Shown here: piece after piece, positions 4,139-28,731 of the stretch
Layout: each line of letters starts with the position of its first letter
Numbering within the stretch: the stretch's first letter is position 1
Notes under the pieces: model-generated
What the model was told of the DNA's origin: nothing
Seen by the model: the letters and a program-made list of their open reading frames with translations, nothing else
Databases searched by the model: none
Origin: Candidatus Hodarchaeota archaeon
GTDB lineage: Archaea > Asgardarchaeota > Heimdallarchaeia > Hodarchaeales > Hodarchaeaceae
Direction of reading: 5' to 3'
DNA: 29,646 nt
Assembly: GCA_029856365.1 (NCBI GenBank)
Contig: JAHQWW010000032.1
Location: 1 to 29,646, forward strand
Program-made: the position numbers and the translations under genes

Positions 4139-4579
4139 TTAATCGTTTTTAATTCTAATTGGGCCTAATTCTCTAATTTTTTTGGTAAAGTCAGTCATTA
4201 TTTGTGCAAAACGTTTACCTTCACTAGCACTAATCCATTCCAAACGGAACCGATCGATTTCCCATCCAAGAGTCTTTAATGCTTCAACCATTTTGTTCAT
4301 ACGTTCCTCTGCTCTTAAGTTTCCCTCTAGATAGTGGCAATCGCCAGGGTGGCAACCAGCAACCATAACGCCATCAGCTCCTTTCAGGAATGCTTTGAGA
4401 ACGAATGCGGGATCTACCCGTCCAGAACACATTACTCGTACGATACGAATATTAGTCGGATATTGAAGCCGAGAGACTCCAGCTAGGTCTGCACCCGCAT
4501 AACTACACCAGTTACAAGCAAAGACAATGATTTTTGGTTCAAAAAGATCATTGGTAGATTTAATTTCAGCTTGAGTCAT
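4139..4579 (-). CDS. mvhD: MvhD/FlpD [2Fe-2S] hydrogenase/Hdr adaptor subunit
   Basis: FACNWCSYAGADLAG, RVMCSGRVD, GCHPGDCHY, WISASEG. Likely start is ATG at 4579 (MTQAEIK) with AGGTGA RBS, not the ORF-track start inside hdrA. Confidence 0.95.
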   Translation of the reverse strand: MTQAEIKSTNDLFEPKIIVFACNWCSYAGADLAGVSRLQYPTNIRIVRVMCSGRVDPAFVLKAFLKGADGVMVAGCHPGDCHYLEGNLRAEERMNKMVEALKTLGWEIDRFRLEWISASEGKRFAQIMTDFTKKIRELGPIRIKND

Positions 4580-4595
4580 TATTTTTTCACCTTTC

Positions 4596-7500
4596 TTATG
4601 GAGCCTCCATAGATGCTGGTTCTGAGATTTCTTCAACATGGTCTTCTGGTTTAATAAGAATGGACTCGAATTGTCTTTCGATAGTTTTATTGGGGAAGTG
4701 TTTAACCGTAATTGCTCCAACTGGACATGTTACCACACAAACTCCACATCCTTTACAAACAGCTTCGTGTATAACAGCTTTTACTGTTTGAATTGATTTT
4801 GTTTCCAATTCTATTGTCTTTATTTCCAATTCAATTGCCTTATAGGGGCATACCTGTTCACACCTACCACAGCCGCGACAAAGATCTTGATCTACTCTTG
4901 AAATGGCTCCTTCTGATAGTAGATATCCTTTAGCAAGGAGAGCCATTACCCGAACAGCTGCCCCACTCCCTTGAAAAATGCTTTCTGTTGTGAATTTAGG
5001 AAAGTGACATGTTCCTGCAAGGAATATACCGTCTGTAGCAAAATCTATTGGTCTTAATTTCACATGTGCCTCTAGGAAGAACCCATCAGCCCCACGAGTA
5101 ACTTTGAACATCTGACTTAATTCCTCATTTGGTTTGGGAACCAATGGAACACTAAGAACAATTAAATCTGGTTTGATTCTAAGAGTAGCTCCTAACATTG
5201 GATCAAAGATCTCAACTATTCCATCAGGACTTACATTTGGTTTCTGGTCATCAGTATAACGTATAAAAATAGTACCAAGCTGTCTTGTTTCCAGATATTT
5301 TTCTTCTAGTTCACCATAAGTTCGAATATCTTTATAGAGAATGAATACATTAGCATTTGGATTACGTTCTTTAATACGAATACTATTCTTAATAGCTACT
5401 GTACAACATATACGGCTACAATAAGTCCTAGGTGGTTCATCCTCACGTGAGCCTACACATTGAATCATAACTACTGTTTGGGGATTCAGTTCATCAAAAC
5501 GTTCTTCAAATTCCCTTTGAGTTATTATGTTTGGATTTTCTCCATAATGATAGTAGCCATTTGGTACAAATGGCTCAGCTCCCGTTGCAAGAATAACTGC
5601 TCCAAATTTAATTTCCTCGCCCTTAACTGTTCCGTTGAAGTTGCCAACGGCTCCACTAAAGTCTTCAAGCTCCGAATTCGTAAAAACAGTGATTTTTCGT
5701 TCTGCATTAACCTGATTTACCAAATTCTCGATAATCTCTTTGCCCTTAAGTTTGTTGTGAAGTTCTGGTATCTTTAAGAGCTCTCCACCAAGCTGATCTT
5801 CCTTTTCTATCAGATAAACTGGATATCCAGCTCGCGCAAGATCTAAAGCACTGGTCATACCAGCGCAGCCACCTCCAATAACAGCAGCTTTCTGAACTAT
5901 AGGAATTTTTTCTTTAAGCAGAGGTTCAAGTTCACAAGTTCGAGCAATTGCTCCTCTAATCAGGTCTTTTGCCTTTTCATTAGCCTTTTCTGGTTCATTA
6001 GGGTGAACCCATGAAGCGTGTTCACGCAAATTCACAAGATCAAATAGAAATTCGTTTAAGCCTACTTCTTTAAGAGTACTTCGAAATAATGGTTCATGGG
6101 TACGCGGGGTGCAAGAAGCGACTATAATACGATTCAAATTATGTTCCTTTATCGCATCTTTAATTACTAATTGTGTATCTGCAGCACAAGCATACATCGG
6201 ATCCGTTGAGAATACAACATTCGGAAATGACTTGGCGTATTCAGCAACTTCTGCACAATTTATAACTGAGGCGATGTTGTGCCCACAATGGCAAACTAAG
6301 ACCCCTATTCGTGGTTCATCTAATGCATCTACTTTAATTGGACGGGGAAGCTTAATTTCTTCGATTAGAGTGCCTCTCACATTTTTAAGTAATATAGACG
6401 CTTTAGCTGCTGCACCACTTGCTTCTGCAACAGTATCAGGAATATCTTTTGGACTTGAAGCAACTCCACAGACGTAAACCCCTGGTCGATTTGTTTCTAG
6501 TGGTGTTAATGGATCTGTTGCTATAAAACCGTACTCATCTAATGTAAGGTTCATACAGTCTTTTAGAAAATCTGAGTGAGAGGAGGGATCCAATCCAGTA
6601 GATAATACAACCATATCCATCTCCTCAGAGGTGATATCGGATGTGCCTGTAAAATCTTCATATTTGACAATTAAATTGTGATTATTTGGATTTTCTCGTA
6701 TTTCACCAATGCGCGACTTGATGAAGTGTATATTGAACTCATTAATAGCCCGTTGGTAAAACTCTTCAAATCCTTTCCCAAATGCACGTATATCCATATA
6801 GTAAATATATGCTTCAACACTAGGATCGTGTTCTTTGACCATTATTGCTTCTTTTATGGCATACATACAACATGCAGCAGAGCAATAATTTCTATTAAGA
6901 GAAGGATTACGTGATCCAACACACTGTAAGAAAGCTATTTTCTTGGGATGTTTTTGATCTGATGGTCTAATTACTTCTCCTCCAGTTGGCCCTGATGCAT
7001 TAAGCAATCTTTCAAATTGCAATGTTGTAACAACATTGGGAAAACGTCCGAAGTGTAAACTACTTATTTCTTTCGCATCAAAAGGATCAAATCCAGTTGT
7101 TACAATTACTGCGCCAACCTTAATCTCGCGCTCCTCGTCTTTTTGTTCATAATCAATAGCTCCAGGCCCACAAGCTTTTTGACAGAGCCCACACTTCCCT
7201 TTTTGAATATATCGGCATGTCTCAGGTACGAGAAATGCTACCTTAGGGACAGCTTGAGGAAATGGAATAGAAATATTTTTTCTTGCAGGTCTGTCTCTAC
7301 CTCTCCTATCTTTTCTCGTTAAATATTCATTGAAATAATCATCAATATACACTGGACATTTTGCTTCGCAATCCCCACATCCTGTGCATTTTTCTTCATC
7401 AACGTAACGTGCTTTCTTAAGATATCTCAGTGTAAAATTCCCTGCAGATCCTGTAAGAGCTAATGGTTCGCAATAAGTAAGAAGTTTAATATTCGGATGA

Positions 7501-7712
7501 CGTTGAACATCAACTAATTTTGGACCAAGAATGCACATTGCGCAATCGAGAGTTGGAAAAGTCTTGTCTAATTGAACCATTCTGCCCCCTATAGAAGGAT
7601 TACTTTCAACCATGTATACAAGAAATCCTTGATCAGCTAAATCTAATGATGCTTGAATCCCTGCAATACCGCCACCAATAACTGCTACTGAACCTAATGT
7701 TTCTTCTGTCAT
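4596..7712 (-). CDS. hdrA: Large heterodisulfide reductase subunit A with two tandem FAD modules
   Basis: GGGIAG and GGGCAG FAD motifs; LDKTFPTLDCAMCI; QCVGSR..YCS..CC twice; RIGVLVCHCG, ASCTPRTHE, NLREHASWVH; ferredoxin motifs. GAGGTAGG RBS. Confidence 0.95.
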   Translation of the reverse strand: MTEETLGSVAVIGGGIAGIQASLDLADQGFLVYMVESNPSIGGRMVQLDKTFPTLDCAMCILGPKLVDVQRHPNIKLLTYCEPLALTGSAGNFTLRYLKKARYVDEEKCTGCGDCEAKCPVYIDDYFNEYLTRKDRRGRDRPARKNISIPFPQAVPKVAFLVPETCRYIQKGKCGLCQKACGPGAIDYEQKDEEREIKVGAVIVTTGFDPFDAKEISSLHFGRFPNVVTTLQFERLLNASGPTGGEVIRPSDQKHPKKIAFLQCVGSRNPSLNRNYCSAACCMYAIKEAIMVKEHDPSVEAYIYYMDIRAFGKGFEEFYQRAINEFNIHFIKSRIGEIRENPNNHNLIVKYEDFTGTSDITSEEMDMVVLSTGLDPSSHSDFLKDCMNLTLDEYGFIATDPLTPLETNRPGVYVCGVASSPKDIPDTVAEASGAAAKASILLKNVRGTLIEEIKLPRPIKVDALDEPRIGVLVCHCGHNIASVINCAEVAEYAKSFPNVVFSTDPMYACAADTQLVIKDAIKEHNLNRIIVASCTPRTHEPLFRSTLKEVGLNEFLFDLVNLREHASWVHPNEPEKANEKAKDLIRGAIARTCELEPLLKEKIPIVQKAAVIGGGCAGMTSALDLARAGYPVYLIEKEDQLGGELLKIPELHNKLKGKEIIENLVNQVNAERKITVFTNSELEDFSGAVGNFNGTVKGEEIKFGAVILATGAEPFVPNGYYHYGENPNIITQREFEERFDELNPQTVVMIQCVGSREDEPPRTYCSRICCTVAIKNSIRIKERNPNANVFILYKDIRTYGELEEKYLETRQLGTIFIRYTDDQKPNVSPDGIVEIFDPMLGATLRIKPDLIVLSVPLVPKPNEELSQMFKVTRGADGFFLEAHVKLRPIDFATDGIFLAGTCHFPKFTTESIFQGSGAAVRVMALLAKGYLLSEGAISRVDQDLCRGCGRCEQVCPYKAIELEIKTIELETKSIQTVKAVIHEAVCKGCGVCVVTCPVGAITVKHFPNKTIERQFESILIKPEDHVEEISEPASMEAP

Positions 7713-7723
7713 TTTCCTACCTC

Positions 7724-8863
7724 TTAATCACTTTTTTTCGTTGAAAGTTCATCAACTATCATTCCTATTTCTTTCACCTTGATCTGATAATTGTGCTGGG
7801 GTTTTTTATCTTCCAATACACAATTTAGGTGAGCAAAACACTTATTACAGGCTACAACAAGTGTCCCCTGTTCTCCCACTGCCTGAGTTGCTTCTTCTAA
7901 TTTCCGTAGCATCACCGAACGTGATTGATCATCACATCTAAGCCAAGCAGATACTCCACAACAGTTTGTAAATTGTCTATTGAGTGAAAGCTCCTTAAAA
8001 GTTGCCCCAGTGTTTTTTAATACGTTTCGTGGGGCATCATATTCTTTCATAAATCTACCAAGACGACAAGGATCGTGGTAAGCTAATAATGGAGAATTGT
8101 CATCCTTAAACCCAAATGCTTCTAGATGCTCTTCAATAAACTGAGAAATATGCTGAATTTTCACACCTTCAAGCTCATACAATTTTTGGAAAGTATAATA
8201 GCCTTCAGCACAGGATACTACCAAGGTGGTAATCCCTGATTCTTTAATCATCTGTTCATTATATTTACGAACTTTATTAAATGAATTAAGATCACCAGTC
8301 CAATATGCATCATGACCACAACATTTTAAGGATAGAAGATTCGGTTTAATTCCAACCTTGTTCATTATATTGATAGCACTCTGTCCGATTTGATGAAAAT
8401 TAGTTTTTTCTAAATCTAAAAATTTATCAAAGAGATCTGCGCAACCTGGAAAATAAGCTATGTTAGATTTTGGATCTGTTTCCCCTTCATAATTGAACTT
8501 CATGCCTGAATCAATCATTTCTGTCATAAATATCTGAAGAAGATTGAAAATATTATGATGAGCATATCTTTCCTCATTTATTCCCATCTCAACTCGTTTT
8601 AACCGTATAAATTCTGGAAAATCAATCTCTTGTGGACACACTTCTAAGCATTTTCCACAGGTTAAACATGCAGTTAAATCGTCTTCACTCACAGGTTTAT
8701 CTAATAACGAATTATGAATGATTTTTCGTGGATTAAACTTGGAAACTCTTCGCAATGGGCATACACTAGTACAAGATGAGCATTGATAGCACGCTTTCAG
8801 AATTTCTGCCGTTGTATCTGAACTAAATATTTCAAAGCTTGGATGTTTTTCTGAAACTACCAT
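7724..8863 (-). CDS. HdrD-like Fe-S oxidoreductase (HdrC-like 2x[4Fe-4S] plus two CCG domains)
   Basis: CYQCSSCTSVCP and CLTCGKCLEVCP; YFPGC, CCGH, YHDPCRLGR, CCG, ACNKC. Confidence 0.88.
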   Translation of the reverse strand: MVVSEKHPSFEIFSSDTTAEILKACYQCSSCTSVCPLRRVSKFNPRKIIHNSLLDKPVSEDDLTACLTCGKCLEVCPQEIDFPEFIRLKRVEMGINEERYAHHNIFNLLQIFMTEMIDSGMKFNYEGETDPKSNIAYFPGCADLFDKFLDLEKTNFHQIGQSAINIMNKVGIKPNLLSLKCCGHDAYWTGDLNSFNKVRKYNEQMIKESGITTLVVSCAEGYYTFQKLYELEGVKIQHISQFIEEHLEAFGFKDDNSPLLAYHDPCRLGRFMKEYDAPRNVLKNTGATFKELSLNRQFTNCCGVSAWLRCDDQSRSVMLRKLEEATQAVGEQGTLVVACNKCFAHLNCVLEDKKPQHNYQIKVKEIGMIVDELSTKKSD

Positions 8864-8876
8864 ATTTTGTGTCCCC

Positions 8877-9758
8877 TTATGTTTTAGCTCCTTTTAATAG
8901 TTTTTTTGGAGAAACATAGTTAGATCCTAATCCTAGAGATTTATAATCGAGTCCCATCCCCAAGCCAAGTACTTGACTGAAATAAAGCACAGGGATTTCG
9001 AATTTTTCATCTGTGACTCTTTTTATTGCCTGTTTCTGTTGGCCATCAAGGGATAGAGCGCACATTTGACACGCAAGAAGGATGAATTCAGCACCGACAT
9101 CTCTAGCATTTAATAAAATATTTCCCGTCAATGTTTCAACAACAGGTTTAGCAACGAGCATCTGTGTTGCTCCGCAGCATTTTGTTTTCATAGGAAAAAA
9201 TTGCGGTTCTGCTCCCACGACTTCTATTAAATCATCCATGAAGGTTGGATTATCAGGATCCTCAAATTGAATGATATCACCTGGACGTGTGCAAAAACAC
9301 CCATAATAGGAAACAGCTTTTTTCCCTTCCAAAGGATTTCCAGGTACAATTTTCTCTTTTATTTTTTCAATACCCACATAATCTCGAAGGAGTTCCAGGA
9401 TATGCATTGGTTTTACACTATTTGGAGTATACGGGGTTTCTAATAATGAATTTATTTCATCTGCTTTATTTTTATCGTGTACCATTTTATAATTTGTAGC
9501 TATTAATTGGTAAGAACAAGCAGGACATACAGCTATAAGTTGTTCAAATTTCTGTTCTTCTGCCAAAGCAAGATTTCTGGCCACAATGCCTTCAGCTGCC
9601 AAATGGTCAACAGCAGTAACTTCTAAAGCTCCGCAACAGTTCCAATCCTTTAATTCAACTAGTTCAACACCTAATTTTTCCATCACTTTATGTACTGATC
9701 TGTCATATTCTTTGGCCACTTTATGAAGAGAACAACCTGGATAATAACCGACTTTCAT
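8877..9758 (-). CDS. hdrB: Heterodisulfide reductase subunit B
   Basis: YYPGCSLH, WNCCG, CPAC, YYGC...RP, KCCGA, ACQMC, PVLYFSQ. Start likely at ATG 9758 (MKVGYY). Confidence 0.93.
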   Translation of the reverse strand: MKVGYYPGCSLHKVAKEYDRSVHKVMEKLGVELVELKDWNCCGALEVTAVDHLAAEGIVARNLALAEEQKFEQLIAVCPACSYQLIATNYKMVHDKNKADEINSLLETPYTPNSVKPMHILELLRDYVGIEKIKEKIVPGNPLEGKKAVSYYGCFCTRPGDIIQFEDPDNPTFMDDLIEVVGAEPQFFPMKTKCCGATQMLVAKPVVETLTGNILLNARDVGAEFILLACQMCALSLDGQQKQAIKRVTDEKFEIPVLYFSQVLGLGMGLDYKSLGLGSNYVSPKKLLKGAKT

Positions 9759-9768
9759 ATGTATCACT

Positions 9769-10413
9769 TCATTTTTGTATGCTTTTAGCCTTCTTGTATA
9801 TTTTTCTTACTTTTCTGGCGTTTGAATTCCAGGGGTGAAATCCAGGGGGGAAGAATTCGATTTTAAATTTCTTGAGCATACCAAGAATCATAGAAATATA
9901 TCTGAAACCAATCAAAGCCCCAAATGGTAAACCTCGTCCATACATAAAATAACGACCAATGTATTCCGGCTCCCATGTTCGTCCCCATAGCCAAATACTC
10001 TCTGAGAACCGTTTATCGAAGGAATGTTTAAGCCTTCCCTGTTTGGGGAGTTTTGTGCGTTTTTTCTTATCCTTATTTTTTGTATTACGGACAGCAATGC
10101 GACGTAGAGCTTCAATAATTTCTGTAAAACGAACGTTTTGTGGGCAGCGATCAGTACATTCATAACAACCCACACATTGCCAAATAGCTGTTGATTCAAG
10201 GACTTCCTTTCTCATTCCAAGTAAAACCTGCCTAATAATCTTTCGTGGATTGAAATCAAATCCAGCATCAGTAACGGGGCACGTCAACGTACAAGATGAA
10301 CATTGAAAACACTTTTTTAGATGTTCACCCCCTGGTTCATTGACCACCTCATTCTTAAAATTAGGATCGGCGGTACTTAAATCTATGATCTTCTCTATGG
10401 ATATGGTACTCAT
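9769..10413 (-). CDS. hdrC: Heterodisulfide reductase subunit C
   Basis: CFQCSSCTLTCP, NPRKIIR, IWQCVGCYECTDRCP; directly upstream of hdrB. Start likely at ATG 10413. Confidence 0.92.
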   Translation of the reverse strand: MSTISIEKIIDLSTADPNFKNEVVNEPGGEHLKKCFQCSSCTLTCPVTDAGFDFNPRKIIRQVLLGMRKEVLESTAIWQCVGCYECTDRCPQNVRFTEIIEALRRIAVRNTKNKDKKKRTKLPKQGRLKHSFDKRFSESIWLWGRTWEPEYIGRYFMYGRGLPFGALIGFRYISMILGMLKKFKIEFFPPGFHPWNSNARKVRKIYKKAKSIQK

Positions 10414-10493
10414 GATAATCACTTTTCGTGATTTCTAATACATTCAAGTAATTGGAAATAGTCTTTCAAACTCAATCAATAGATGTCGACATA

Positions 10494-10530
10494 AAAATGC
10501 TAATTATACTACATTAAAATGTTAATTATA
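10494..10530. promoter_or_regulatory. 15-bp direct repeat AAAATG(C/T)TAATTATA x2, candidate operator of the hdr operon
   Basis: Copies at 10494-10508 and 10516-10530, one mismatch, 22-bp period, about 80-120 bp upstream of hdrC. Confidence 0.4.
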
Positions 10531-10961
10531 TAGCTTTTTTATATCAATCTTTCTTACTTTGTTCTTGTACAATTGTTAACAATACTTATCTGTAGCGTAT
10601 TGTTATTATAATCACTTTCCAACTATTTTATCAAAAACAAACGGGGATTCTATTTATTTTCAAGTGAGAACTTCATGTGGTTAAATAAGAAGTGTCTGTA
10701 ATCTGATTATAATAAAGGATCCATAAATTAAATATATTCCACAAAAGGTCTTTTGAAGTGTATATTCCATTTAAATACCTTAAATGAAGATTTACCTTCT
10801 AAAATCGTTTTGTTAATTCATGAAAATTCAAAGCATAAAGAATGAATGATAAAGAAGGTATTCTTCTTTTCCAATTAAGATGCAAAGATATAAAAAATCA
10901 ATCAATGAAATCGCTCGATGGTTCTCAACATATTACAAATGTAATAATGGAGTCGTATTTA

Positions 10962-11357
10962 ATGTCCTACGAGTTAGATAGCAAAGCTAAATACTATAAA
11001 GAGCATGATTGGGTCAGAGTAGAAAAAGATGGCTCATGTTTAATTGGAATAACTGATTACGCCCAAAAGGCGCTTAAAGATATTGTCTTCGTGGAACTTC
11101 CAGAAGTTGGTGATACTGTAACATTTGGAGAGGTTTATGGTTCCGTCGAAAGTGTAAAAGCGGTATCAGATATTTATAGCCCCATCTCTGGGGAAATTAT
11201 TGAAGTTAATGAGGAAGTGGAAGACTCCCCAGAGATGTTAAATGAATATCCATATGGAACCTGGTTACTTCGTATTAAACCATCTAATCTTGATGAAGAA
11301 TTAGGAAAACTTATGACACCAGACGAATATGACGAACTTTGTTCTAGTGAAGGATGA
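10962..11357 (+). CDS. gcvH: Glycine cleavage system H protein / lipoyl carrier
   Basis: YYKEHDWV, IGITDYAQ, VFVELP, lipoyl-lysine motif VESVKAVSDIYSPISG. Start likely at ATG 10962 (131 aa). Confidence 0.93.
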   Translation: MSYELDSKAKYYKEHDWVRVEKDGSCLIGITDYAQKALKDIVFVELPEVGDTVTFGEVYGSVESVKAVSDIYSPISGEIIEVNEEVEDSPEMLNEYPYGTWLLRIKPSNLDEELGKLMTPDEYDELCSSEG

Positions 11358-11361
11358 AGTC

Positions 11362-11393
11362 CTTCTTTCCTTTTCAATACCTCTTTTTTTTCC
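11362..11393 (+). terminator. Archaeal-type oligo-T terminator after gcvH
   Basis: Pyrimidine tract ending in a T8 run shortly after the stop, in a convergent intergenic region. Confidence 0.5.
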
Positions 11394-11467
11394 ATTATTA
11401 GCTTCTTATTCTTGATTTCATCTAAGTTCTAGCTCGAAAATCAAAAAATAACCTACTGGAGTTTCTA

Positions 11468-13678
11468 TCAATCCATAGCTTCGAGAACTAATTCTATCAG
11501 ATCTTTAATTTCAATATCCCCTTCTAATTGCTGAGTTTTTGAAGCATCGGTTAGCATACTCGTACAAAAAGGACAAGCTGTTATTAGAATCTTTTTTCTA
11601 GGTTTATCATCTTCTTTATCTTCCGAAAATGAGACCAAGGTCTCTTTGGCTTCTAATATTCGGTGTTCAGAGATACGTGTAGTCACCCACTCTGGAGTCT
11701 CACGAAACATACCACCACCACCACCACCACAGCAGTAACTGAATTGACCATGATTTGGCATCTCTTTCATTCTCACACCTGGGAGGAGTTCTATTATCTT
11801 ACGAGGGGCATCATAAATATCATTATACCTACCAAGGTAACAGGGATCGTGATATGTTACTATATAATTCAATTCATTTGTGAATTTTATCTTCCCCTCT
11901 TCAATAAGCTCAACCAATAATTCTGTGTAATGAACAACATCAAATTCTCCTCCATACTCTAGATACTCATTTTTAATGGCATTATAGGCATGAGGTGAGG
12001 ATGTAACAATTCTTTTGACTTTATTTTTTTTGAACATTCCGATGTTATCTTCAGCAAGCATCTGGAATAGTGCCTCCTCACCTAATCGCCTCATTTCATT
12101 ACCATCATTCTTCTCTGCTTCGCCAAGTGTCCCAAAATCGACACCTGCTTTGGAAAACACCTCATAGGTTGCCCGAGCAACTTTTTGATTTCTTGGATCG
12201 TAAGCTAGTGTATCTCCAGGAAGCCAAAGCAACTTTGATTCGGACTCTTTTATAGTGGGTAGTGTTCCCTCTTTTAACCATTTCACTCGGTCACGTTTTG
12301 GTTGATCCCAGATGTTACCATAATTATATACACTTTCGAGCATTGTAGCAAATGTTGCAGGTATTTCACCCTCCTCAATCAAAGTAGCACGCATCCCAAC
12401 AATCATATTAACATGTCCAATGAGATGAGGACAGGCGTTTGTGCAGGCATAGCAAGTAACACAAGCCCACAAGACATCTCCAGTAATTCCTGATGCTTCA
12501 CCAATAATAGGAACACCTTTATTAGAATTGATTAAACCATATTGTTTTCTACCCCAATTTTTCACGTCTTGAATGATCTTTAATGGAGATAGTGGTTCAC
12601 CTGAATCCTGAGCAGGACAATAATTGTGACAAAAATGACATTTCATGCAAGCCGAGGCTTCAAACAATTGATAAAATGTAAAATCTTCGATTGATTTAAT
12701 GCCTTCAGGGTCGAATTGTAACTGTCCTGCTGGTGATTTCATGTCTGTAAGAACGATATTAGCAAGACCTACTCCAATATGGAAGAATTTACCAAAGGCT
12801 AGATAAGCTGCGCCAATAAAGGCTACTGCGAGGTGTGAGAGATAGAAAGAGAGGTGCAATGCAAAAATTTGCTCATTGCTGGGTGAAAGAGTTTGGAGGA
12901 TTAATGCGAGAGGATATCCAATAAACGAAAAGATCTCGAAATTAATTTCAGCTTGGTTAACTAAACCATACACAATACGAGTGGCTTCAATGAAAAAACC
13001 TGAAATACTAACCCAGATAAGTAACAACAACAGAAAGAGATCCTCGTAACTTGCTTGTGTATAATAATCACGTTCTATAACGTATCGTCTCAGTAATGCC
13101 AAAGCAGTTCCCAAGAATAAGAGTAATCCCGCTAAATCGGCAAAAAGAGAATGAGCCACGTATAGAGGGCCGACCAGAAGTTCTTCATGTAAAAATTCAA
13201 TATATATCCACTCATGGATCGTAGATATAATGGTGGCAATTGCAGCTCCTAGGAAACCCAGCATAATCATTCCATGGATAATGAAACTCGACCATTGCCA
13301 CGTTTTGCGTTTATTAATCCCCGCTCCAATGCCATAGTACAATCTTTTAGGGAATGATCGTGAGAAGATGTTTTTAAAAGCTGTAAGAACAAGACTAAAG
13401 AAAAATGGAATGAATTTCTGACCTTTTTTATCATATTTTCCATGGAACCAAACACGCATCCCACGATAAATGCCAATCAGGACAATTAAAACTGCAATTC
13501 CTGCACTGATATAGATAAGGAAACCAAGTTGGTGCCCATACGTTTCTATATGACGGGGCCAATAAACTTCTCTCCCTGGTTCTTGAAGAACAGAAAGTAC
13601 TTTTTGAATCATTAAGTCCACCAATACTGAATTCATAAGATTATTTGATGCATTTAAATTGTAATTCGACAGAGTCAT
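11468..13678 (-). CDS. Membrane-bound Fe-S oxidoreductase, NarI-like TM domain plus HdrD-like domain (HdrF/FadF family)
   Basis: About 6 TM helices with His residues (IIHG, LSH, KFFH); CMKCHFCHNYCP and CVTCYACTNACP; YHDPCYLGR, CCGGGG, ACPFC. Start uncertain. Confidence 0.85.
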   Translation of the reverse strand: MTLSNYNLNASNNLMNSVLVDLMIQKVLSVLQEPGREVYWPRHIETYGHQLGFLIYISAGIAVLIVLIGIYRGMRVWFHGKYDKKGQKFIPFFFSLVLTAFKNIFSRSFPKRLYYGIGAGINKRKTWQWSSFIIHGMIMLGFLGAAIATIISTIHEWIYIEFLHEELLVGPLYVAHSLFADLAGLLLFLGTALALLRRYVIERDYYTQASYEDLFLLLLLIWVSISGFFIEATRIVYGLVNQAEINFEIFSFIGYPLALILQTLSPSNEQIFALHLSFYLSHLAVAFIGAAYLAFGKFFHIGVGLANIVLTDMKSPAGQLQFDPEGIKSIEDFTFYQLFEASACMKCHFCHNYCPAQDSGEPLSPLKIIQDVKNWGRKQYGLINSNKGVPIIGEASGITGDVLWACVTCYACTNACPHLIGHVNMIVGMRATLIEEGEIPATFATMLESVYNYGNIWDQPKRDRVKWLKEGTLPTIKESESKLLWLPGDTLAYDPRNQKVARATYEVFSKAGVDFGTLGEAEKNDGNEMRRLGEEALFQMLAEDNIGMFKKNKVKRIVTSSPHAYNAIKNEYLEYGGEFDVVHYTELLVELIEEGKIKFTNELNYIVTYHDPCYLGRYNDIYDAPRKIIELLPGVRMKEMPNHGQFSYCCGGGGGGMFRETPEWVTTRISEHRILEAKETLVSFSEDKEDDKPRKKILITACPFCTSMLTDASKTQQLEGDIEIKDLIELVLEAMD

Positions 13679-17308: not shown

Positions 17309-19249
17309 TTGGAACGCAAAAATCCCAAATTGGTCTTTATTCAAAGTATTGCAGAGCAAGAACGGCGCTTAGATCAAAAAATATCATCCGAAGCCAAATC
17401 AGTAATCAAAAACCTTCAACGACAACCCAAGTCCTATTATTCAATAGGGGATGTAGAGGATTTAGTTGAAAAGCTCAAAAAACAGATGCAGTCAATCAAT
17501 AAATCAGCTCACACGGAATTTTCGAAGATAGGATTGAAAGGAGTAGATAATCTCGATTTGCTTGGTTCTGAGGCCACGTTGATCACGAATGAGGAGTTTG
17601 AACAACTCAAGGAAGAAAATCAAAAGTTACAAGAGAAAGTATTTGAAAACAATGCATTAGAAATGAAAATTGACGATCTTCATATTTTACTTGATGAAAA
17701 GGAAACAGAAATTGCTCAATTGAAAAACCAATCAGGCATTGATTCTGGGAAAGTTTCGTCACAAATTGAGGACTTAAATCGTCTCCAAGAGACCCTTGAT
17801 GAAGCTCAACGTGAATTGAAGAAAGCTGTTCAAGATCGTGAAAAGATGGAAACTGAATTTGAAACTGTTGGTAATGCATTAATGTCCGCAAGGCTCGAAA
17901 TAGAGCAACTTCAAGAGGTAATTGGGAATAAAGACCAAGAAATTGAGACTATAACTTCTGAAAACAATATCGAAATTGAAAACTTGAAATCAGAGGTTCA
18001 AGTATTAACCACTCAATCTGAGGAGAATGTTAAACTAAAGGAAACAGTTGAAACTCTTCAAAAAGAAATTCACAAACAAAAGACAACATTGAATGAAAAG
18101 CTCCAATTGAAGGAGGATTACATCAATCAAGTGAATCAACAAATCCAAGACATGAAGCAAAACGAAAAACAGCTAAAAGAACAGATTTCAAAGCTGGAAC
18201 AAGAAAATGAAGATTTACTACTAGATTCAGGTGAAACAAGTCAGGAAGCAGTTGCTATTCGCAGTAAATTGGATGAAACACAACAAATTCTTGATCAGAA
18301 AGAAGATGAGAATAGAGAACTCCATCTTAGAGTAGAGAGGAGTGAGAAAGAAGTCGAAATACTTTCAGAACAGATAACTAATCTAAAAGAGGAAAATAAA
18401 CAAGTAAAACAAAATTTTGAAATGTTAACTCTAGAAATAACTACCCAAAAACAAGATTTGGGCGAAAAAACAATTGAAGTAGAAGAGATCCAAGAACGAT
18501 TAGATAATGCCCAAGAACTTATTGACAACCTCCAAAGCTCTAAACGATCATTAGAGACTCGAGTGAATGATTTAGAAATAGATCTGAAAGGAAAAGACGA
18601 ACGTATTTATACAATTGAATCTGATCGTAATGAATTACGGGAAACTCTTACAAGCTTGAAAATTGAGCATGAGAAACAGAAAACATCGTTAGTAGATCTC
18701 AAAACTCAACTTAGCACAAAAGATCGCGAGCTGGAAGGAAGACAAAAGGATTTGGAAGTTTTGAGACAAAGACAAGAAGAAATTACTCAACAAGCCGACG
18801 CCTCTCGTTCTAAACAAGCTGAAATCGCACGCGAGTGCGATAAATATGAAAACATGATAAAAGATCTTCAAACACAGCTGATTGACATTAAAGCAGAGAA
18901 AGAACAAAGTGAGAAGAAGTTAAATGATATTAAAGCTGAATTAAGAGAAAGGGACACAGAAATCTCGACCCTGTCTGACATAAAGTCACAACTAGAACAA
19001 AAATCAGCTAATTTAATGACCGCAGTGGAAACATTAAGGATTAATCTTGCTAAGAACCCCAAATATGCAATATTATTTATTCTACAGGACATTCAACAGG
19101 CAAATTTAACCGAGCTTGCTAAAACTGTTGCCATTCAAAATATCTTTGCAACACGCTTGTTAAAGGAACTTGAATCGGAGGGATGGGTTAGTTTCAACGA
19201 AGAAAATGGTCAGGTTACATTGAAAAAAGCAATCCTAGAACTTGACTAA
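17309..19249 (+). CDS. Long coiled-coil protein with C-terminal winged-helix (wHTH) domain
   Basis: About 480 aa of E/K/Q/L heptad repeats. C-terminus PKYAILFIL..ANLTELAKTVAI..FATRLLKELESEGWVSFNEENGQVTL fits a wHTH pattern. No Walker A motif. Confidence 0.8.
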   Translation: MERKNPKLVFIQSIAEQERRLDQKISSEAKSVIKNLQRQPKSYYSIGDVEDLVEKLKKQMQSINKSAHTEFSKIGLKGVDNLDLLGSEATLITNEEFEQLKEENQKLQEKVFENNALEMKIDDLHILLDEKETEIAQLKNQSGIDSGKVSSQIEDLNRLQETLDEAQRELKKAVQDREKMETEFETVGNALMSARLEIEQLQEVIGNKDQEIETITSENNIEIENLKSEVQVLTTQSEENVKLKETVETLQKEIHKQKTTLNEKLQLKEDYINQVNQQIQDMKQNEKQLKEQISKLEQENEDLLLDSGETSQEAVAIRSKLDETQQILDQKEDENRELHLRVERSEKEVEILSEQITNLKEENKQVKQNFEMLTLEITTQKQDLGEKTIEVEEIQERLDNAQELIDNLQSSKRSLETRVNDLEIDLKGKDERIYTIESDRNELRETLTSLKIEHEKQKTSLVDLKTQLSTKDRELEGRQKDLEVLRQRQEEITQQADASRSKQAEIARECDKYENMIKDLQTQLIDIKAEKEQSEKKLNDIKAELRERDTEISTLSDIKSQLEQKSANLMTAVETLRINLAKNPKYAILFILQDIQQANLTELAKTVAIQNIFATRLLKELESEGWVSFNEENGQVTLKKAILELD

Positions 19250-25651: not shown

Positions 25652-26449
25652 TTATGTTTTAGTATTGCTATGAGTAGCTTGGTCTGAAGATAAGTGAGTT
25701 AATGGAATCTTTATACTGTTTGGGTCACTTTTGGAGTGTATTTTTAGCTTTTTTATGATTGACTTTTTAATAGCTCTTATTAACCCCAAAATAAGAAAAA
25801 TCCTTGATATAGAATCTTTATCATCTAAATTAGGGAATAGAATACTCTTGACCTTTTCTCTCTCGGAATAGACAATAATTCCTAGTAGTAATAAGATTAA
25901 AAATACGTAAAGTAGATTACCAGTTAAATACAAAACGACAAAGGGAATGAAAAACCCAACAATAGCATTGGGAATGAAGTTATCATATGTACTTTGCTTT
26001 TTCTTTAGTTTCTTTCCAAGTTGGATCAAAGGCATTAAAAAGGTGTAAAGAACCAAAAAACTCTCCCAAGAAAGAAATAAGACCACACCACCAAGAGGAG
26101 CTCCACCCTTTCCTCCATGCCATTCCTTTTTATGTAACCAAATCAGAAGCGAATGAATATGTCCAGCAATAATCCCAAAGCTACCAAGAATAATTGCAGC
26201 CTCATAATAAGGAGAAGATTCAAAAAAAATCCTTATGATGAAAAGAGCGAATGCTGCTTTAAAAATATCAAATAATCCCACAAAAATCATTACTGGCCAT
26301 CCTAGAATTCGTCCAGTATTTGAAGCACCTAATTGACCAGTTCCTGCTTTCGTCAAATCGATTCCCTTTACGAAATAAACTAGAAAATAGGAAATGAAAA
26401 TTGATCCCATTAGATATCCAAAAAATCCTGCTATTACGACTTCAATCAT
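25652..26449 (-). CDS. plsY: PlsY-like acyl-phosphate:glycerol-3-phosphate acyltransferase (divergent)
   Basis: GYLMGSI, DL..AGTGQLGASNTGR (motif 1), DIFKA, AGH...GGKGGA (motif 2); multi-TM. Motif 3 is degenerate. Confidence 0.75.
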   Translation of the reverse strand: MIEVVIAGFFGYLMGSIFISYFLVYFVKGIDLTKAGTGQLGASNTGRILGWPVMIFVGLFDIFKAAFALFIIRIFFESSPYYEAAIILGSFGIIAGHIHSLLIWLHKKEWHGGKGGAPLGGVVLFLSWESFLVLYTFLMPLIQLGKKLKKKQSTYDNFIPNAIVGFFIPFVVLYLTGNLLYVFLILLLLGIIVYSEREKVKSILFPNLDDKDSISRIFLILGLIRAIKKSIIKKLKIHSKSDPNSIKIPLTHLSSDQATHSNTKT

Positions 26450-27329
26450 TGATTTTTTCTCCTTTATCTGAATTATCTAGAGAACTAAAACATGAAAGTA
26501 AAATCAAACCTGGTCCTGCATGAGTAACGATCATTGGATCAACGTTTCCTTGGATAATCTCATGATCGGGAAAATTATGTCTGATAATACCCTCAACTAC
26601 TTTCGCTTCTTCATCACAACTGAAATATCCTATTCCTATCATTTTGGGAACGAATTCTATATCTATACTATTAAACACTGATTCAATCATAAGATCAATA
26701 GCTTTTTGCCGATTTCGTGGCTTCCCTAAAAGAGAAATATCATCTCCACGCATCATTAACACAGGTTTGATGGAAAAGGTATTTGCCAGAAAGCTTACAA
26801 TTTTTAATTTAATTCGTCCACTTCTCTGAAGATATTTGAATGAATCAAGGGTTCCTATGATTTGAATCCTTTCACAGTACTCCGTGACCCTTCGAAGTAG
26901 TTCTGATAACTCATCCACTTGTTTTGCTGTGATGGCTGCTGCAATTGCAGTTAATCCAAGCCCCAAAGACCCAACACCGCATTCAAAACGAATTACTCGC
27001 GTTGGATTCTCTAATCGTTTAGCTGCAACTTTTGCTACACTCGAAGTAGCTGTAACCTTACTAGAGCTGTGAATGCTTAAAATAAAATCCACATTATCAC
27101 AAAGGTGTGTATAAGCCTTATAATATTCTGCTGGAGAAGGTGCTCCTGTTCTTAATTTCTTATTATTTTCTTTTATAATGCTTTTAATATCATCTGGATA
27201 TATATCAACTCCGCTACGGTAAACTTCATCCTCAATAAATACTGTGCCAGGAACAATAACAATACCATATTTAATGGCAAGCTTTGGAGGTAAATCACTC
27301 ATTGAATCGGTTACAATACCAACTTTCAA
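26442..27329 (-). CDS. DegV-family fatty-acid-binding protein (FakB-like)
   Basis: KVGIVTDSMSDLP, T..PSP, SIH.SS, YLQRSGRI, IKPVL, HAGPG. Stop overlaps the plsY start (ATGATTGA). Confidence 0.9.
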   Translation of the reverse strand: MKVGIVTDSMSDLPPKLAIKYGIVIVPGTVFIEDEVYRSGVDIYPDDIKSIIKENNKKLRTGAPSPAEYYKAYTHLCDNVDFILSIHSSSKVTATSSVAKVAAKRLENPTRVIRFECGVGSLGLGLTAIAAAITAKQVDELSELLRRVTEYCERIQIIGTLDSFKYLQRSGRIKLKIVSFLANTFSIKPVLMMRGDDISLLGKPRNRQKAIDLMIESVFNSIDIEFVPKMIGIGYFSCDEEAKVVEGIIRHNFPDHEIIQGNVDPMIVTHAGPGLILLSCFSSLDNSDKGEKIND

Positions 27330-27332
27330 TAT

Positions 27333-28349
27333 TTAATCAACTTTTACAGCCTTTTCAATACGCTCAATGAGCTCGTGATTTTGCTCATGCAACGCCTGAA
27401 CTGAAATCAATTCGAAAGAACCAACTAAACTTCCCATTTTGCTTATAACTTTGTTGGGATTAGAAGAATGAATATGAACTTTAATTTCTGATAATGATTC
27501 ATTGCTAATAACTAATAAACAATTTCCTTCCTTCCTGAGCTCAAACTTGATGAGATCCAGAGGCTTCATCAAATTACTAATTCGAAAGATTAACTCAAAT
27601 TCTGGTTCATTCTTTGGTAAATTGATTTTTGGCTTTAAAAATGGAAGCAAATCATTATCAATGGTTTGAAAGGATGTGATAGCAATTGGTAGTTTTCCAA
27701 CTATTGCACTTATAAATCCCTCAAAAATAAGGACTAAACCTATTGCTCCTGCGTCAACAACTCCTGCGAAGTTCGCTTCATGCAAAAGGCGATGAGTATC
27801 TAGTAAGGCAATTTTTGCTTCATCAAAAACCAAAAATAGTAACTCATAAGGACTACTTAAGGTATTAGACCACGTCATAGCCGTTTCTGCGATTATTCGG
27901 GCTACAGTAAGAATAGTTCCTTCCCTAGGATCCTCTATAGCTTGATAGGCTAGGTTAGCTGCTGATTTTAATCCTCTAGCAAATAAAACGCCATCAATAA
28001 TATGAAAATGTTTACATATCTTTTCTAAACCACGAAAATATTCTGCTAGGATAATTCCAGAATTACCAACACTACCTCGAAAAGCTCCAAGAGATGCAGC
28101 AGAAATGATCTTACCACAATGATTACTTTCCTTAACATTTACAATTTCATTTACAATTGATCTAAAAGTCTGGTACATATTGATCCCAGTATCACCATCA
28201 GGCACAGGAAATACATTAATATCATTAATTAGATCAATATATCTTTCCAGCTTCTTAAAAGCTTTAATAAACATAGAATAGAAATCTTTACCTTCAAAAA
28301 ATCTTGGAAAAACATTTTCCTCGACTGGGAGGAAACTGTGTTGCTCCAT
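27333..28349 (-). CDS. DAK2-domain fatty acid kinase catalytic subunit (FakA-like, lacking the C-terminal domain)
   Basis: INVFPVPDGDTGINM, GNSGIIL, EGTILTV, VVDAGA, KVHIH. Start likely at ATG 28349 (MEQHSF). Confidence 0.88.
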   Translation of the reverse strand: MEQHSFLPVEENVFPRFFEGKDFYSMFIKAFKKLERYIDLINDINVFPVPDGDTGINMYQTFRSIVNEIVNVKESNHCGKIISAASLGAFRGSVGNSGIILAEYFRGLEKICKHFHIIDGVLFARGLKSAANLAYQAIEDPREGTILTVARIIAETAMTWSNTLSSPYELLFLVFDEAKIALLDTHRLLHEANFAGVVDAGAIGLVLIFEGFISAIVGKLPIAITSFQTIDNDLLPFLKPKINLPKNEPEFELIFRISNLMKPLDLIKFELRKEGNCLLVISNESLSEIKVHIHSSNPNKVISKMGSLVGSFELISVQALHEQNHELIERIEKAVKVD

Positions 28350-28731
28350 CTTTAATGTCACAACTATGCATCTTTGGTAACATTTACACAAATATTGCTC
28401 TACTTGAACAAGTGACGCAAAGGTTTAAAACTTTTTCGATTTTAGAAAACTTCGTATATGGATTAAAAGATGAGTTGGAAATAGTAAATGTTACTAAACA
28501 AACCCAATTCCTCCTTATAGGAATTTTTTTGGTTGAAGATTCGAAGATTTAGATTTCTTATAAAAAAGTAGAAAAGATCGCCCTGACATATTTCATCTAG
28601 AATCCTTAGGAACTATTCGTAGAGCAAATACCATATTTCCAAATGTTTCAGACAATTCAGAAGTTAAAAATGGGACTTATCATGTAGAATATCGATCTTA
28701 TTAAAGCATTCTAACAAGAATTTCCTGGATC

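What the first reader, a model, noticed from the sequence alone, without database searches (positions are those of the whole stretch)
25652..28349. Bacterial-type fatty-acid kinase plus PlsY operon in an apparently archaeal genome
Seen: tightly coupled DAK2 (FakA-like), DegV (FakB-like) and plsY-like genes, with a 3-nt gap and an 8-nt overlap. Known: in Firmicutes FakAB phosphorylates exogenous fatty acids to acyl-phosphate, the PlsY substrate for acylating glycerol-3-phosphate; archaea normally make isoprenoid ether lipids on G1P. Inference: a complete scavenging route to ester-linked lysophosphatidic acid, relevant to chimeric membranes and the lipid divide if the host is an Asgard archaeon.
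Basis: partly seen in the sequence, partly recalled or inferred. Interest (0 to 1): 0.8.

Follow-up and report, generated by a model that had tools for sequence, protein, structure and literature searches.

The report
Asgard fatty-acid kinase–PlsY-like operon
An archaeon of the genus Hodarchaeum, among the proposed closest relatives of eukaryotes, carries a conserved three-gene operon that should turn free fatty acids into acyl-phosphate and ester-link them to a membrane acceptor. Both enzymes differ from the bacterial ones, so the lipid made is unknown.

Summary
Three minus-strand genes (27333-28349, 26442-27329, 25652-26449) lie 3 nt apart and then overlap by 8 nt. They encode a FakA-like kinase, a DegV/FakB-like protein and a PlsY-family membrane protein.

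The host is archaeal. It falls in the same GTDB genus as Ca. Hodarchaeum mangrovi, and the contig is syntenic with other Hodarchaeum MAGs, so it is not chimeric.

- The kinase has the N and middle domains only. It lacks the FakB-docking C domain, and catalytic Cys240 is Glu.
- The PlsY-like protein keeps the acyl-phosphate site but has a remodelled glycerol-phosphate pocket (His177 to Glu/Asp, Asn180 to Lys, a clade-specific insert) in all 32 clade members.
- In a sister family the PlsY-like and kinase genes are fused into one ORF, which argues for direct acyl-phosphate hand-over.
- Related cassettes add an esterase-like hydrolase.
- All three genes are under purifying selection.
- The cassette is accessory: 10 of 22 genomes in the genus have it.
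- No GpsA, PlsX, CdsA or fatty-acid synthase was found. GlpK, two G1P dehydrogenases and PlsC-like enzymes are present.

The acceptor, and therefore the product, is unproven. This scan had already found the same operon on other DNA.

The parts
28404..28441 (-). Conserved promoter-like block: purine-rich stretch plus TATA-like TTTTAAA (28430-28424), followed by the conserved TTTGCGTCACTTGTTCAA
   Evidence: Nearly invariant in the three orthologous type-A loci (window, L001, L002) while the flanking intergenic DNA diverges. It lies 55-92 nt upstream of ATG 28349. Its function as a promoter is inferred.
27333..28349 (-). Minimal fatty-acid-kinase catalytic subunit (FakA N + middle domains, 338 aa; no FakA_C domain)
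   Evidence: Pfam Dak2 plus FakA-like_M. 35-38% identity to bacterial FakA over positions 1-345 only. DGDTG, GNSG, EGTILT, GVVDAG and KVHIH are conserved, while Cys240 is Glu. dN/dS 0.15-0.18.
26442..27329 (-). DegV/FakB-like fatty-acid-binding protein (295 aa, TTG start)
   Evidence: Pfam DegV 3.7e-51; TIGR00762 at 197 bits, over its cut-off. Aligns end to end with solved DegV/FakB structures and keeps the TxxPSP, SSSK, RSGRI and HAGPG motifs. dN/dS 0.24-0.29.
25652..26449 (-). PlsY-family acyl-phosphate acyltransferase homologue with a remodelled acceptor pocket and a 60-aa C-terminal tail (265 aa)
   Evidence: PF02660 at 81 bits. AF2 model pLDDT 84.7; PlsY structures 5xj5-5xj8 are the only Foldseek PDB matches at E <= 0.001, TM 0.80-0.83. 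His92, GGKG, Asn42 and Arg45 are kept. S35T, N37Q, H177E, N180K and an insert with invariant Asn157 are present. dN/dS 0.23-0.29.

Best explanation
This is a native, selected, accessory Hodarchaeales operon. It encodes a stripped-down two-component fatty acid kinase feeding a PlsY-family membrane acyltransferase. Proposed mechanism: DegV/FakB binds a free fatty acid; in sister cassettes the fatty acid is probably released by the co-encoded alpha/beta hydrolase. The short FakA (Dak2 kinase domain plus middle domain) phosphorylates the carboxylate with ATP to give acyl-phosphate. The PlsY-like protein, whose acyl-phosphate site is intact, takes the acyl-phosphate at the cytoplasmic membrane face and O-acylates a phosphorylated alcohol. 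That acceptor is most likely a glycerol phosphate, of undetermined stereochemistry, because the acceptor pocket is rebuilt. Shown here: gene anatomy, family membership, residue states, conservation, synteny, the fusion, selection and distribution. Inferred: every catalytic step and the acceptor.
For: Domain and family hits. FakA_N catalytic motifs and the His-x-His of the middle domain are invariant. S. aureus FakA_NL without the C domain is catalytically active, with about 10-fold higher FakB Km (PMC9136124). DegV aligns fully to fatty-acid-binding DegV/FakB structures. The PlsY fold is confirmed. The acyl-phosphate site is kept (His92, the hydroxyl at position 41, the GGKG loop; PMC5700162). 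The order FakA-DegV-PlsY is conserved in 10 of 10 Asgard loci. In sister family f2 the PlsY-like and FakA_NL parts form one 571-598-aa ORF followed by DegV. An esterase-like hydrolase lies directly after or before six related cassettes. dN/dS is 0.15-0.29 for all three genes. The cassette is gained or lost as a unit. A conserved promoter-like block lies upstream. The genome lacks PlsX, so Fak is the only visible acyl-phosphate source. Both GlpK (G3P) and G1P dehydrogenases are present.
Against: There is no biochemical or expression evidence. Cys240, whose Ala and Ser mutants lose most activity (C240A over 100-fold) in S. aureus FakA, is Glu in this clade. The G3P-binding residues His177 and Asn180 are replaced; H177E leaves 1% activity in Aquifex PlsY. 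All three proteins score below NCBI's FakA, FakB1 and PlsY equivalog cut-offs. The cassette is absent from 12 of 22 congeners, so any lipid it makes is dispensable. Cultured Lokiarchaeia have so far shown only archaeal lipids (cited in PMC13400652).
Confidence: 0.55

Rival explanations
1. Canonical bacterial pathway: the PlsY-like enzyme acylates sn-glycerol-3-phosphate to lysophosphatidic acid, and PlsC-like enzymes then make phosphatidic acid.
For: PlsY family and fold. A bona fide GlpK supplies G3P (710 bits, over its cut-off). Three PF01553 acyltransferases with intact HX4D are present. Arg45, Lys104 and Asn42 are kept.
Against: Ser35, Asn37, His177 and Asn180 are all replaced clade-wide, and a new insert carries an invariant Asn. 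H177E and the tested N180 substitutions cripple Aquifex PlsY. No GpsA or CdsA was found. The PlsC-like genes are core to the genus and do not track the cassette.
Confidence: 0.2
2. The donor chemistry is the same but the acceptor is different. The rebuilt pocket would take sn-glycerol-1-phosphate or an archaeal intermediate such as geranylgeranylglyceryl phosphate, giving archaeal-backbone or mixed ether/ester lipids.
For: Both residues that contact the glycerol 2-OH in Aquifex PlsY (Ser142, His177) and two phosphate-clamp residues are changed, while the acyl-phosphate site is kept. The genome has two G1P dehydrogenase homologues, GGGPS and CarS. Even bacterial PlsY accepts G1P (PMC13400652).
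Against: This is purely inferential. The Glu/Lys pair could be a neutral structural swap. I had no model coordinates and could not dock ligands. The fused relatives have Ser/Thr rather than Lys at position 180.
Confidence: 0.2
3. The module is not for lipid synthesis. It would detoxify, sense or buffer free fatty acids (as Fak does in staphylococcal signalling), with the PlsY-like protein acting as a sink or anchor.
For: The cassette has an accessory, patchy distribution. Core residues of both enzymes are divergent.
Against: The fusion of a membrane acyltransferase to the kinase, the conserved acyl-phosphate site and the linked esterase all point to transfer of the acyl group.
Confidence: 0.08
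4. Bacterial contamination or a chimeric contig.
For: The closest characterised homologues are bacterial.
Against: The same cassette and the same flanks occur in independent Hodarchaeum MAGs, one on a 410-kb contig. A fused relative lies beside archaeal/eukaryote-type ribosomal proteins L5e/L18p, L19e and L32e. G+C is even across the window. The bacterial PlsY loci fetched lack the neighbours.
Confidence: 0.02

Closest known systems
FakA/FakB fatty acid kinase feeding PlsY in Firmicutes (S. aureus, S. suis, B. subtilis YloV/DegV; PDB 7W7H, 7RM7)
   Same: Dak2 kinase domain with its nucleotide/Mg motifs. A middle domain with His-x-His. A separate DegV-family fatty-acid binder. A PlsY-family acceptor enzyme. 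The logic fatty acid to acyl-phosphate to O-acyl transfer.
   Different: There is no FakA_C domain, which is the FakB docking site. Cys240 is Glu. The three genes form one operon with PlsY, whereas the five bacterial PlsY loci fetched here have no FakA or DegV gene beside plsY. The PlsY acceptor pocket is remodelled. No PlsX or FASII was found.
PlsY-DegV fusion proteins of Chloroflexi (Bellilinea, Thermanaerothrix) noted by Li et al. 2017 (PMC5700162)
   Same: A Rosetta-stone fusion that suggests acyl-phosphate channelling from the Fak system to PlsY.
   Different: Here the fusion partner, in sister-family Hodarchaeales, is the kinase subunit (PlsY-Dak2-FakA_M), not the fatty-acid binder. DegV stays a separate downstream gene. 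Only four such proteins surfaced in the 5.8-billion-protein search, plus a fifth in a genome locus.
'Orphan' PlsY/PlsC homologues reported in Asgard, MGII and DPANN archaea (Villanueva 2017; Coleman 2019, PMC6431249)
   Same: PlsY-family genes in archaeal metagenome bins, discussed in connection with the lipid divide.
   Different: Those reports give no acyl-phosphate source. In my survey, other Heimdall-class PlsY homologues have a canonical pocket and (in 9 of the 10 canonical loci) no Fak neighbours, and a 400-aa type in another Asgard family has a degenerate pocket. The Hodarchaeales type is the one linked to FakA and DegV.
DhaL-DhaK dihydroxyacetone kinase
   Same: A two-protein kinase in which a Dak2 (DhaL) nucleotide-binding subunit phosphorylates a substrate held by a partner protein. 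FakA has been described as an evolutionary mimic of DhaK-DhaL (PMC10848957). The short FakA plus DegV returns to this minimal arrangement.
   Different: The substrate binder is a DegV fatty-acid protein. A FakA-specific middle domain is present.

Membership tests
PlsY (acyl-phosphate:glycerol-3-phosphate acyltransferase) | Pfam PF02660 match and the 7-TM PlsY fold | tested here: met
   81 bits vs cut-off 24.1. AF2 model matches 5xj5-5xj8 at TM 0.80-0.83, rmsd 2.8 A, with no other PDB match at E <= 0.001.
PlsY (acyl-phosphate:glycerol-3-phosphate acyltransferase) | Acyl-phosphate site: His92, a hydroxyl at position 41, the Gly-Gly-Lys-Gly loop | tested here: met
   His 32/32, Ser/Thr 31/32 and Lys104 30/32 in the clade. 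Residue roles come from PMC5700162.
PlsY (acyl-phosphate:glycerol-3-phosphate acyltransferase) | G3P pocket: Ser35, Arg45, Lys104, Asn180 (phosphate clamp); Ser142, His177 (2-OH) | tested here: not met
   Thr35, Glu/Asp177 (32/32) and Lys180 (32/32). Position 142 falls in a clade-specific insert with invariant Asn. Among 130 generic PlsY representatives, position 177 is never Asp/Glu and position 180 is never Lys.
PlsY (acyl-phosphate:glycerol-3-phosphate acyltransferase) | NCBIfam equivalog score (TIGR00023) | tested here: not met
   69.7 bits vs cut-off 137.2.
FakA (fatty acid kinase catalytic subunit) | N-terminal Dak2 domain with Asp-Gly-Asp-Thr-Gly and the nucleotide-binding motifs | tested here: met
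   Pfam Dak2 5.6e-28. The motifs are invariant in alignment A3. 123 bits to the S. aureus FakA_N structures.
FakA (fatty acid kinase catalytic subunit) | Middle domain with catalytic Cys240, His282 and His284 | tested here: inconclusive
   FakA-like_M hit. The His-x-His is invariant, but Cys240 is Glu in all 13 Hodarchaeum-clade sequences. The fused relatives keep Cys.
FakA (fatty acid kinase catalytic subunit) | C-terminal DegV-like FakA_C domain that docks FakB | tested here: not met
   The protein ends after the middle domain. PF13684 is absent from all 22 clade members but present in bacterial hits. The stop codon lies 3 nt before DegV.
FakA (fatty acid kinase catalytic subunit) | NCBIfam equivalog NF038248 / subfamily TIGR03599 score | tested here: not met
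   172 vs 975 bits; 229 vs 396 bits.
FakB / DegV fatty-acid-binding proteins | DegV domain over the full length | tested here: met
   PF02645 3.7e-51; TIGR00762 at 197 bits vs cut-off 99.7. Full-length alignments to 2dt8, 1pzx, 3fys and 4x9x.
FakB / DegV fatty-acid-binding proteins | Carboxylate-binding Thr/Ser/Arg/His network (residue identities recalled from the FakB literature, not re-read here) | tested here: inconclusive
   The corresponding motifs TGAPSP, HSSSK, QRSGRI and THAGPG align with the solved DegV proteins. The His is Asn in the type-B paralogues. The FakB1 equivalog score is 89.6 vs 350 bits.
Fak-PlsY pathway as a functional unit | Acyl-phosphate formation and acyl transfer demonstrated | not testable with these tools
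   Needs enzyme assays. Only genomic coupling (synteny, fusion, co-loss) was shown.

The most novel reading that the evidence does not exclude
Cassette-bearing Hodarchaeales, members of the Asgard group proposed as closest to eukaryotes, would use a membrane-coupled minimal fatty acid kinase and a re-engineered PlsY. With these they would ester-link scavenged fatty acids to a non-bacterial acceptor (G1P or an ether-lipid intermediate). The result would be hybrid archaeal/bacterial-type membrane lipids, a living example of a 'mixed' membrane on the archaeal side of the lipid divide.
Probability: 0.2. Interest if true: 0.85.

Novelty: new variant of a known kind. Interest (0 to 1): 0.62.

Why it matters
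Archaeal PlsY homologues have been cited since 2017 in debates on the lipid divide and on how eukaryotes came to have bacterial-type membranes. They were discounted partly because no acyl-phosphate source (PlsX) exists in these genomes. Here the acyl donor problem has an explicit genomic answer: a dedicated minimal Fak system in the same operon, fused to the PlsY-like enzyme in a sister family. It occurs in the Asgard order proposed as sister to eukaryotes. Three small genes can be cloned and assayed with G3P, G1P and ether-lipid acceptors, which makes the question 'can these archaea make ester lipids, and on which backbone?' directly testable. The clade-specific pocket changes also give a natural experiment on what sets acceptor choice in PlsY.

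Tried and rejected
- Complex prediction of short FakA with DegV gave no verdict (score 0.15). It is not used as evidence either way.
- Rfam and tRNA scans of the window found nothing.
- Co-occurrence of the three PlsC-family genes with the cassette across the genus showed no correlation. These genes are core: 20/22 and 22/22, with strong C33-type orthologues (E < 1e-100) in both cassette-positive and cassette-negative genomes.
- The radical SAM and DUF1786 genes after the fused cassettes look like glycyl-radical-activase-type proteins with no clear lipid link. I did not pursue them.
- Kariarchaeaceae-like short FakA (P0183) has no DegV or PlsY neighbour, so it is not part of this system.
- Two 'short' bacterial FakA hits (P0110, P0130) nest within bacterial full-length FakAs and are probably truncated gene calls.
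- No specific bacterial donor could be named. The archaeal clades sit on long branches outside the sampled bacteria, on a quick tree with a limited bacterial sample.
- The AF2 tool returns no coordinates, so I could not measure where Glu196, Lys199 and Asn157 sit relative to the pocket.
- Contamination or chimerism was rejected on synteny.
Full report
**What is there.** The window is a whole contig (G000:C19) of a 4.24-Mb, 204-contig assembly. The assembly is 84% complete with 4% contamination.
- 27333-28349 has Pfam Dak2 plus FakA-like_M.
- 26442-27329 is DegV.
- 25652-26449 is G3P_acyltransf, the PlsY family.
- The gaps are as described: 3 nt, then an 8-nt overlap.
- ATG 28349 is the conserved start, not the upstream TTG at 28391.
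- A block with a TATA-like TTTTAAA (28430-28424), followed by the motif TTTGCGTCACTTGTTCAA, is nearly invariant in the three orthologous loci, while the DNA around it diverges.
- No RNA family or tRNA lies in the window.

**Whose genome.**
- A scan of 399 genomes of the same phylum places G000 in one GTDB genus with 21 others.
- By matching contig coordinates, one of these (G057) is Candidatus Hodarchaeum mangrovi FT_5_011, of the order Hodarchaeales.
- The upstream DRG-type GTPase and the downstream Ca-ATPase, M48 protease, VWA and MoxR genes lie in the same order, at 75-92% amino-acid identity, around the cassette in two other MAGs. One of those is a 410-kb contig.
- The genome also has two G1P-dehydrogenase homologues, a GGGP synthase and CarS.
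- G+C is even across the window.
- The contig is therefore archaeal and not chimeric.

**The kinase.**
- The FakA-like protein is 338 aa and matches bacterial FakA (about 545 aa) only over the N-terminal Dak2 domain and the middle domain.
- All 22 clade members in the protein database have this short form and lack PF13684, the C-terminal domain.
- Subramanian et al. showed that S. aureus FakA_NL without the C domain is catalytically active, with about 10-fold higher Km for FakB. They also showed that the C domain is the FakB docking site (PMC9136124). The short form is therefore plausibly a working kinase.
- The nucleotide/Mg motifs and the His-x-His of the middle domain are invariant.
- Cys240, whose Ala and Ser mutants lose most activity (C240A over 100-fold) in S. 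aureus, is Glu throughout this clade.
- On a quick maximum-likelihood tree, the Hodarchaeum short forms (support 99), the fused forms (100) and a Kariarchaeaceae-like pair (99) are separate long-branched clades. All lie outside the sampled bacterial FakAs.

**The binder.** The DegV protein passes the DegV family cut-off and aligns end to end with solved fatty-acid-binding DegV/FakB proteins. The motifs that carry the carboxylate-binding residues are retained.

**The acyltransferase.**
- The PlsY-like protein folds as PlsY. The AF2 model has pLDDT 84.7, and 5xj5-5xj8 are the only structural matches at E <= 0.001, with TM 0.80-0.83.
- Using the residue roles established for Aquifex PlsY (PMC5700162), the acyl-phosphate site is kept: His92, a hydroxyl at position 41, and the GGKG loop.
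- The G3P pocket is not kept: Ser35 is Thr, Asn37 is Gln, His177 is Glu and Asn180 is Lys. A 5-aa insert precedes motif 2. A roughly 10-aa insert with an invariant Asn lies where Ser142 would be.
- These states hold in all 32 clade sequences. Among 130 generic PlsY representatives, position 177 is His in 120 and never acidic, position 180 is Asn in 115 and never Lys, and the insert is absent in 129.
- In Aquifex PlsY, H177E leaves 1% activity and raises the G3P Km 30-fold.
- A profile search of 1.84 billion representatives finds 7082 PlsY-family clusters. Only five reach E < 1e-30, plus two fused forms near 1e-28 to 1e-30, before a drop to 2e-20. This is a small, sharply separated subfamily.
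- Other Asgard PlsY homologues are different. Those of other Heimdall-class families have the canonical pocket. A 400-aa type in another Asgard family has a degenerate pocket. Most of these loci have no FakA or DegV gene nearby.

**Evidence that the three genes work together.**
1. The order FakA-DegV-PlsY, with tight spacing, is conserved in all ten related Asgard loci. The five bacterial PlsY loci fetched do not have it.
2. In the two genomes of the sister family in the same order, and in further database entries, the PlsY-like domain is fused in frame to FakA_NL. The fused ORFs are 571-598 aa (PF02660 + PF02734 + PF21645) and are followed by DegV with a 4-nt overlap. One of them lies on a 90-kb contig beside ribosomal proteins L5e/L18p, L19e and L32e. 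Only four such proteins surfaced among 5.8 billion, plus a fifth in a genome locus. The nearest thing in print is a pair of bacterial PlsY-DegV fusions noted by Li et al. 2017.
3. High-quality congeners that lack the PlsY-like gene, including a closed 4.9-Mb genome, also lack the short FakA.
4. A second paralogous cassette type (52-57% identity; one MAG has both types) carries an esterase/lipase-like alpha/beta hydrolase. It lies directly after the PlsY-like gene in four loci and directly before FakA in two. That fits release of fatty acids from ester lipids.
5. dN/dS against two orthologues is 0.15-0.29 for all three genes.

**Pathway context in this genome.**
- No PlsX was found, so Fak is the only visible acyl-phosphate source.
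- No ketoacyl synthase was found, so fatty acids are presumably exogenous or made by another route.
- No true GpsA or CdsA was found.
- A bona fide GlpK is present, which supplies G3P from glycerol, alongside the two G1P dehydrogenases. Either backbone is therefore available.
- Three PF01553 (PlsC-family) acyltransferases with intact HX4D are present. They are core to the genus and do not track the cassette.
- All absences carry the caveat of 84% completeness.

**Distribution.** The cassette is present in 10 of 22 genomes of the genus and in both genomes of the sister family. It is an accessory module, so any lipid it makes cannot be the essential bulk membrane lipid.

**Interpretation.** The most likely function is fatty-acid scavenging through acyl-phosphate, followed by ester formation on a phosphorylated acceptor at the membrane. 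My confidence is about 0.55 in the donor half and the general transfer step, and much lower for any particular acceptor.
- The canonical G3P reading (about 0.2) is weakened by the pocket changes.
- A changed acceptor such as G1P or an ether-lipid intermediate (about 0.2) is attractive but untested. Bacterial PlsY already accepts G1P in vitro (PMC13400652).
- A detoxification or sensing role (about 0.08) and contamination (about 0.02) are less likely.

**Literature and earlier notes.**
- PlsY and PlsC homologues in Asgard bins are published (PMC6431249; PMC13400652).
- Searches for FakA/FakB/DegV together with archaea or Asgard returned no paper describing such an archaeal operon. A 2026 Asgard review does not mention it.
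- Within this scan the same operon was already followed up in another Hodarchaeales genome, and similar stripped-down cassettes were reported in DPANN archaea. I did not test the DPANN claim.
- The PlsY-FakA fusion had no look-alike among earlier notes.

Noticed in passing
L037:4898-6655 (-), L036:2717-4513 (-), L056:6001-7716 (+): Natural PlsY-like::FakA_NL fusion proteins (571-598 aa) in the sister family of the same order. In L037 and L056 they are followed by DegV, a radical-SAM activase-like gene, DUF1786 and an Arf/Ras-like GTPase. The fused forms keep Cys240 and have Asp at the His177 position.
   Followed up: partly
L003:3034-3831, L004:6718-7521, L008:6727-7521, L010:5905-6699; L007:3142-3921, L009:3128-3907: The type-B paralogous cassettes carry an alpha/beta-hydrolase (serine esterase/lipase-like) as a fourth gene, directly after the PlsY-like gene or directly before FakA. 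One MAG (G076, isolate DZ3S.51) has both cassette types.
   Followed up: partly
G000:C109:9946-10275 (-): A 110-codon fragment, 78% identical to the N-terminus of the type-B operon hydrolase, with no cassette genes beside it. It is possibly a relic of a lost second cassette in this genome.
   Followed up: partly
window 25652-25834 (C-terminal 60 aa of the PlsY-like protein): Type-A proteins carry an extra predicted amphipathic/basic helix (residues 213-240) and a disordered tail that type-B proteins lack. In the closest orthologue (L002) the tail is frameshifted, so it looks dispensable.
   Followed up: partly
window 4139-13678 (-) and 10842-11357 (+): A large Hdr-like block: MvhD/FlpD, a 1038-aa HdrA-like flavoprotein with Fer4 domains, and three HdrB/C/D-like CCG proteins. 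A GcvH-like lipoyl-carrier protein (171 aa) sits in the middle of it. The arrangement is reminiscent of sHdr-LbpA sulfur-oxidation clusters (from memory).
   Followed up: no
window 17309-19249 (+): A 646-aa protein with a MarR-type winged helix at its extreme C-terminus. The region has strikingly high AT skew (0.24-0.28). MoxR and VWA genes follow it.
   Followed up: no
G000:C154:20314-21486 and G000:C76:13802-14848: Two paralogous glycerol-1-phosphate dehydrogenase (EgsA) homologues (282 and 329 bits to NF002022) in one genome, alongside a bona fide GlpK (C34) and a second GlpK-like gene (C43).
   Followed up: partly
L045-L049 (an Asgard family outside the window's class, f20): PlsY-family genes of about 400 aa (one database homologue, P0080, carries PF13664 as well), often in tandem arrays of two to four. 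Their substrate pocket is degenerate (Lys104 to Gln/Glu, His177 to Val/Ile/Phe/Ala, Asn180 mostly Asp). No Fak genes are nearby.
   Followed up: partly
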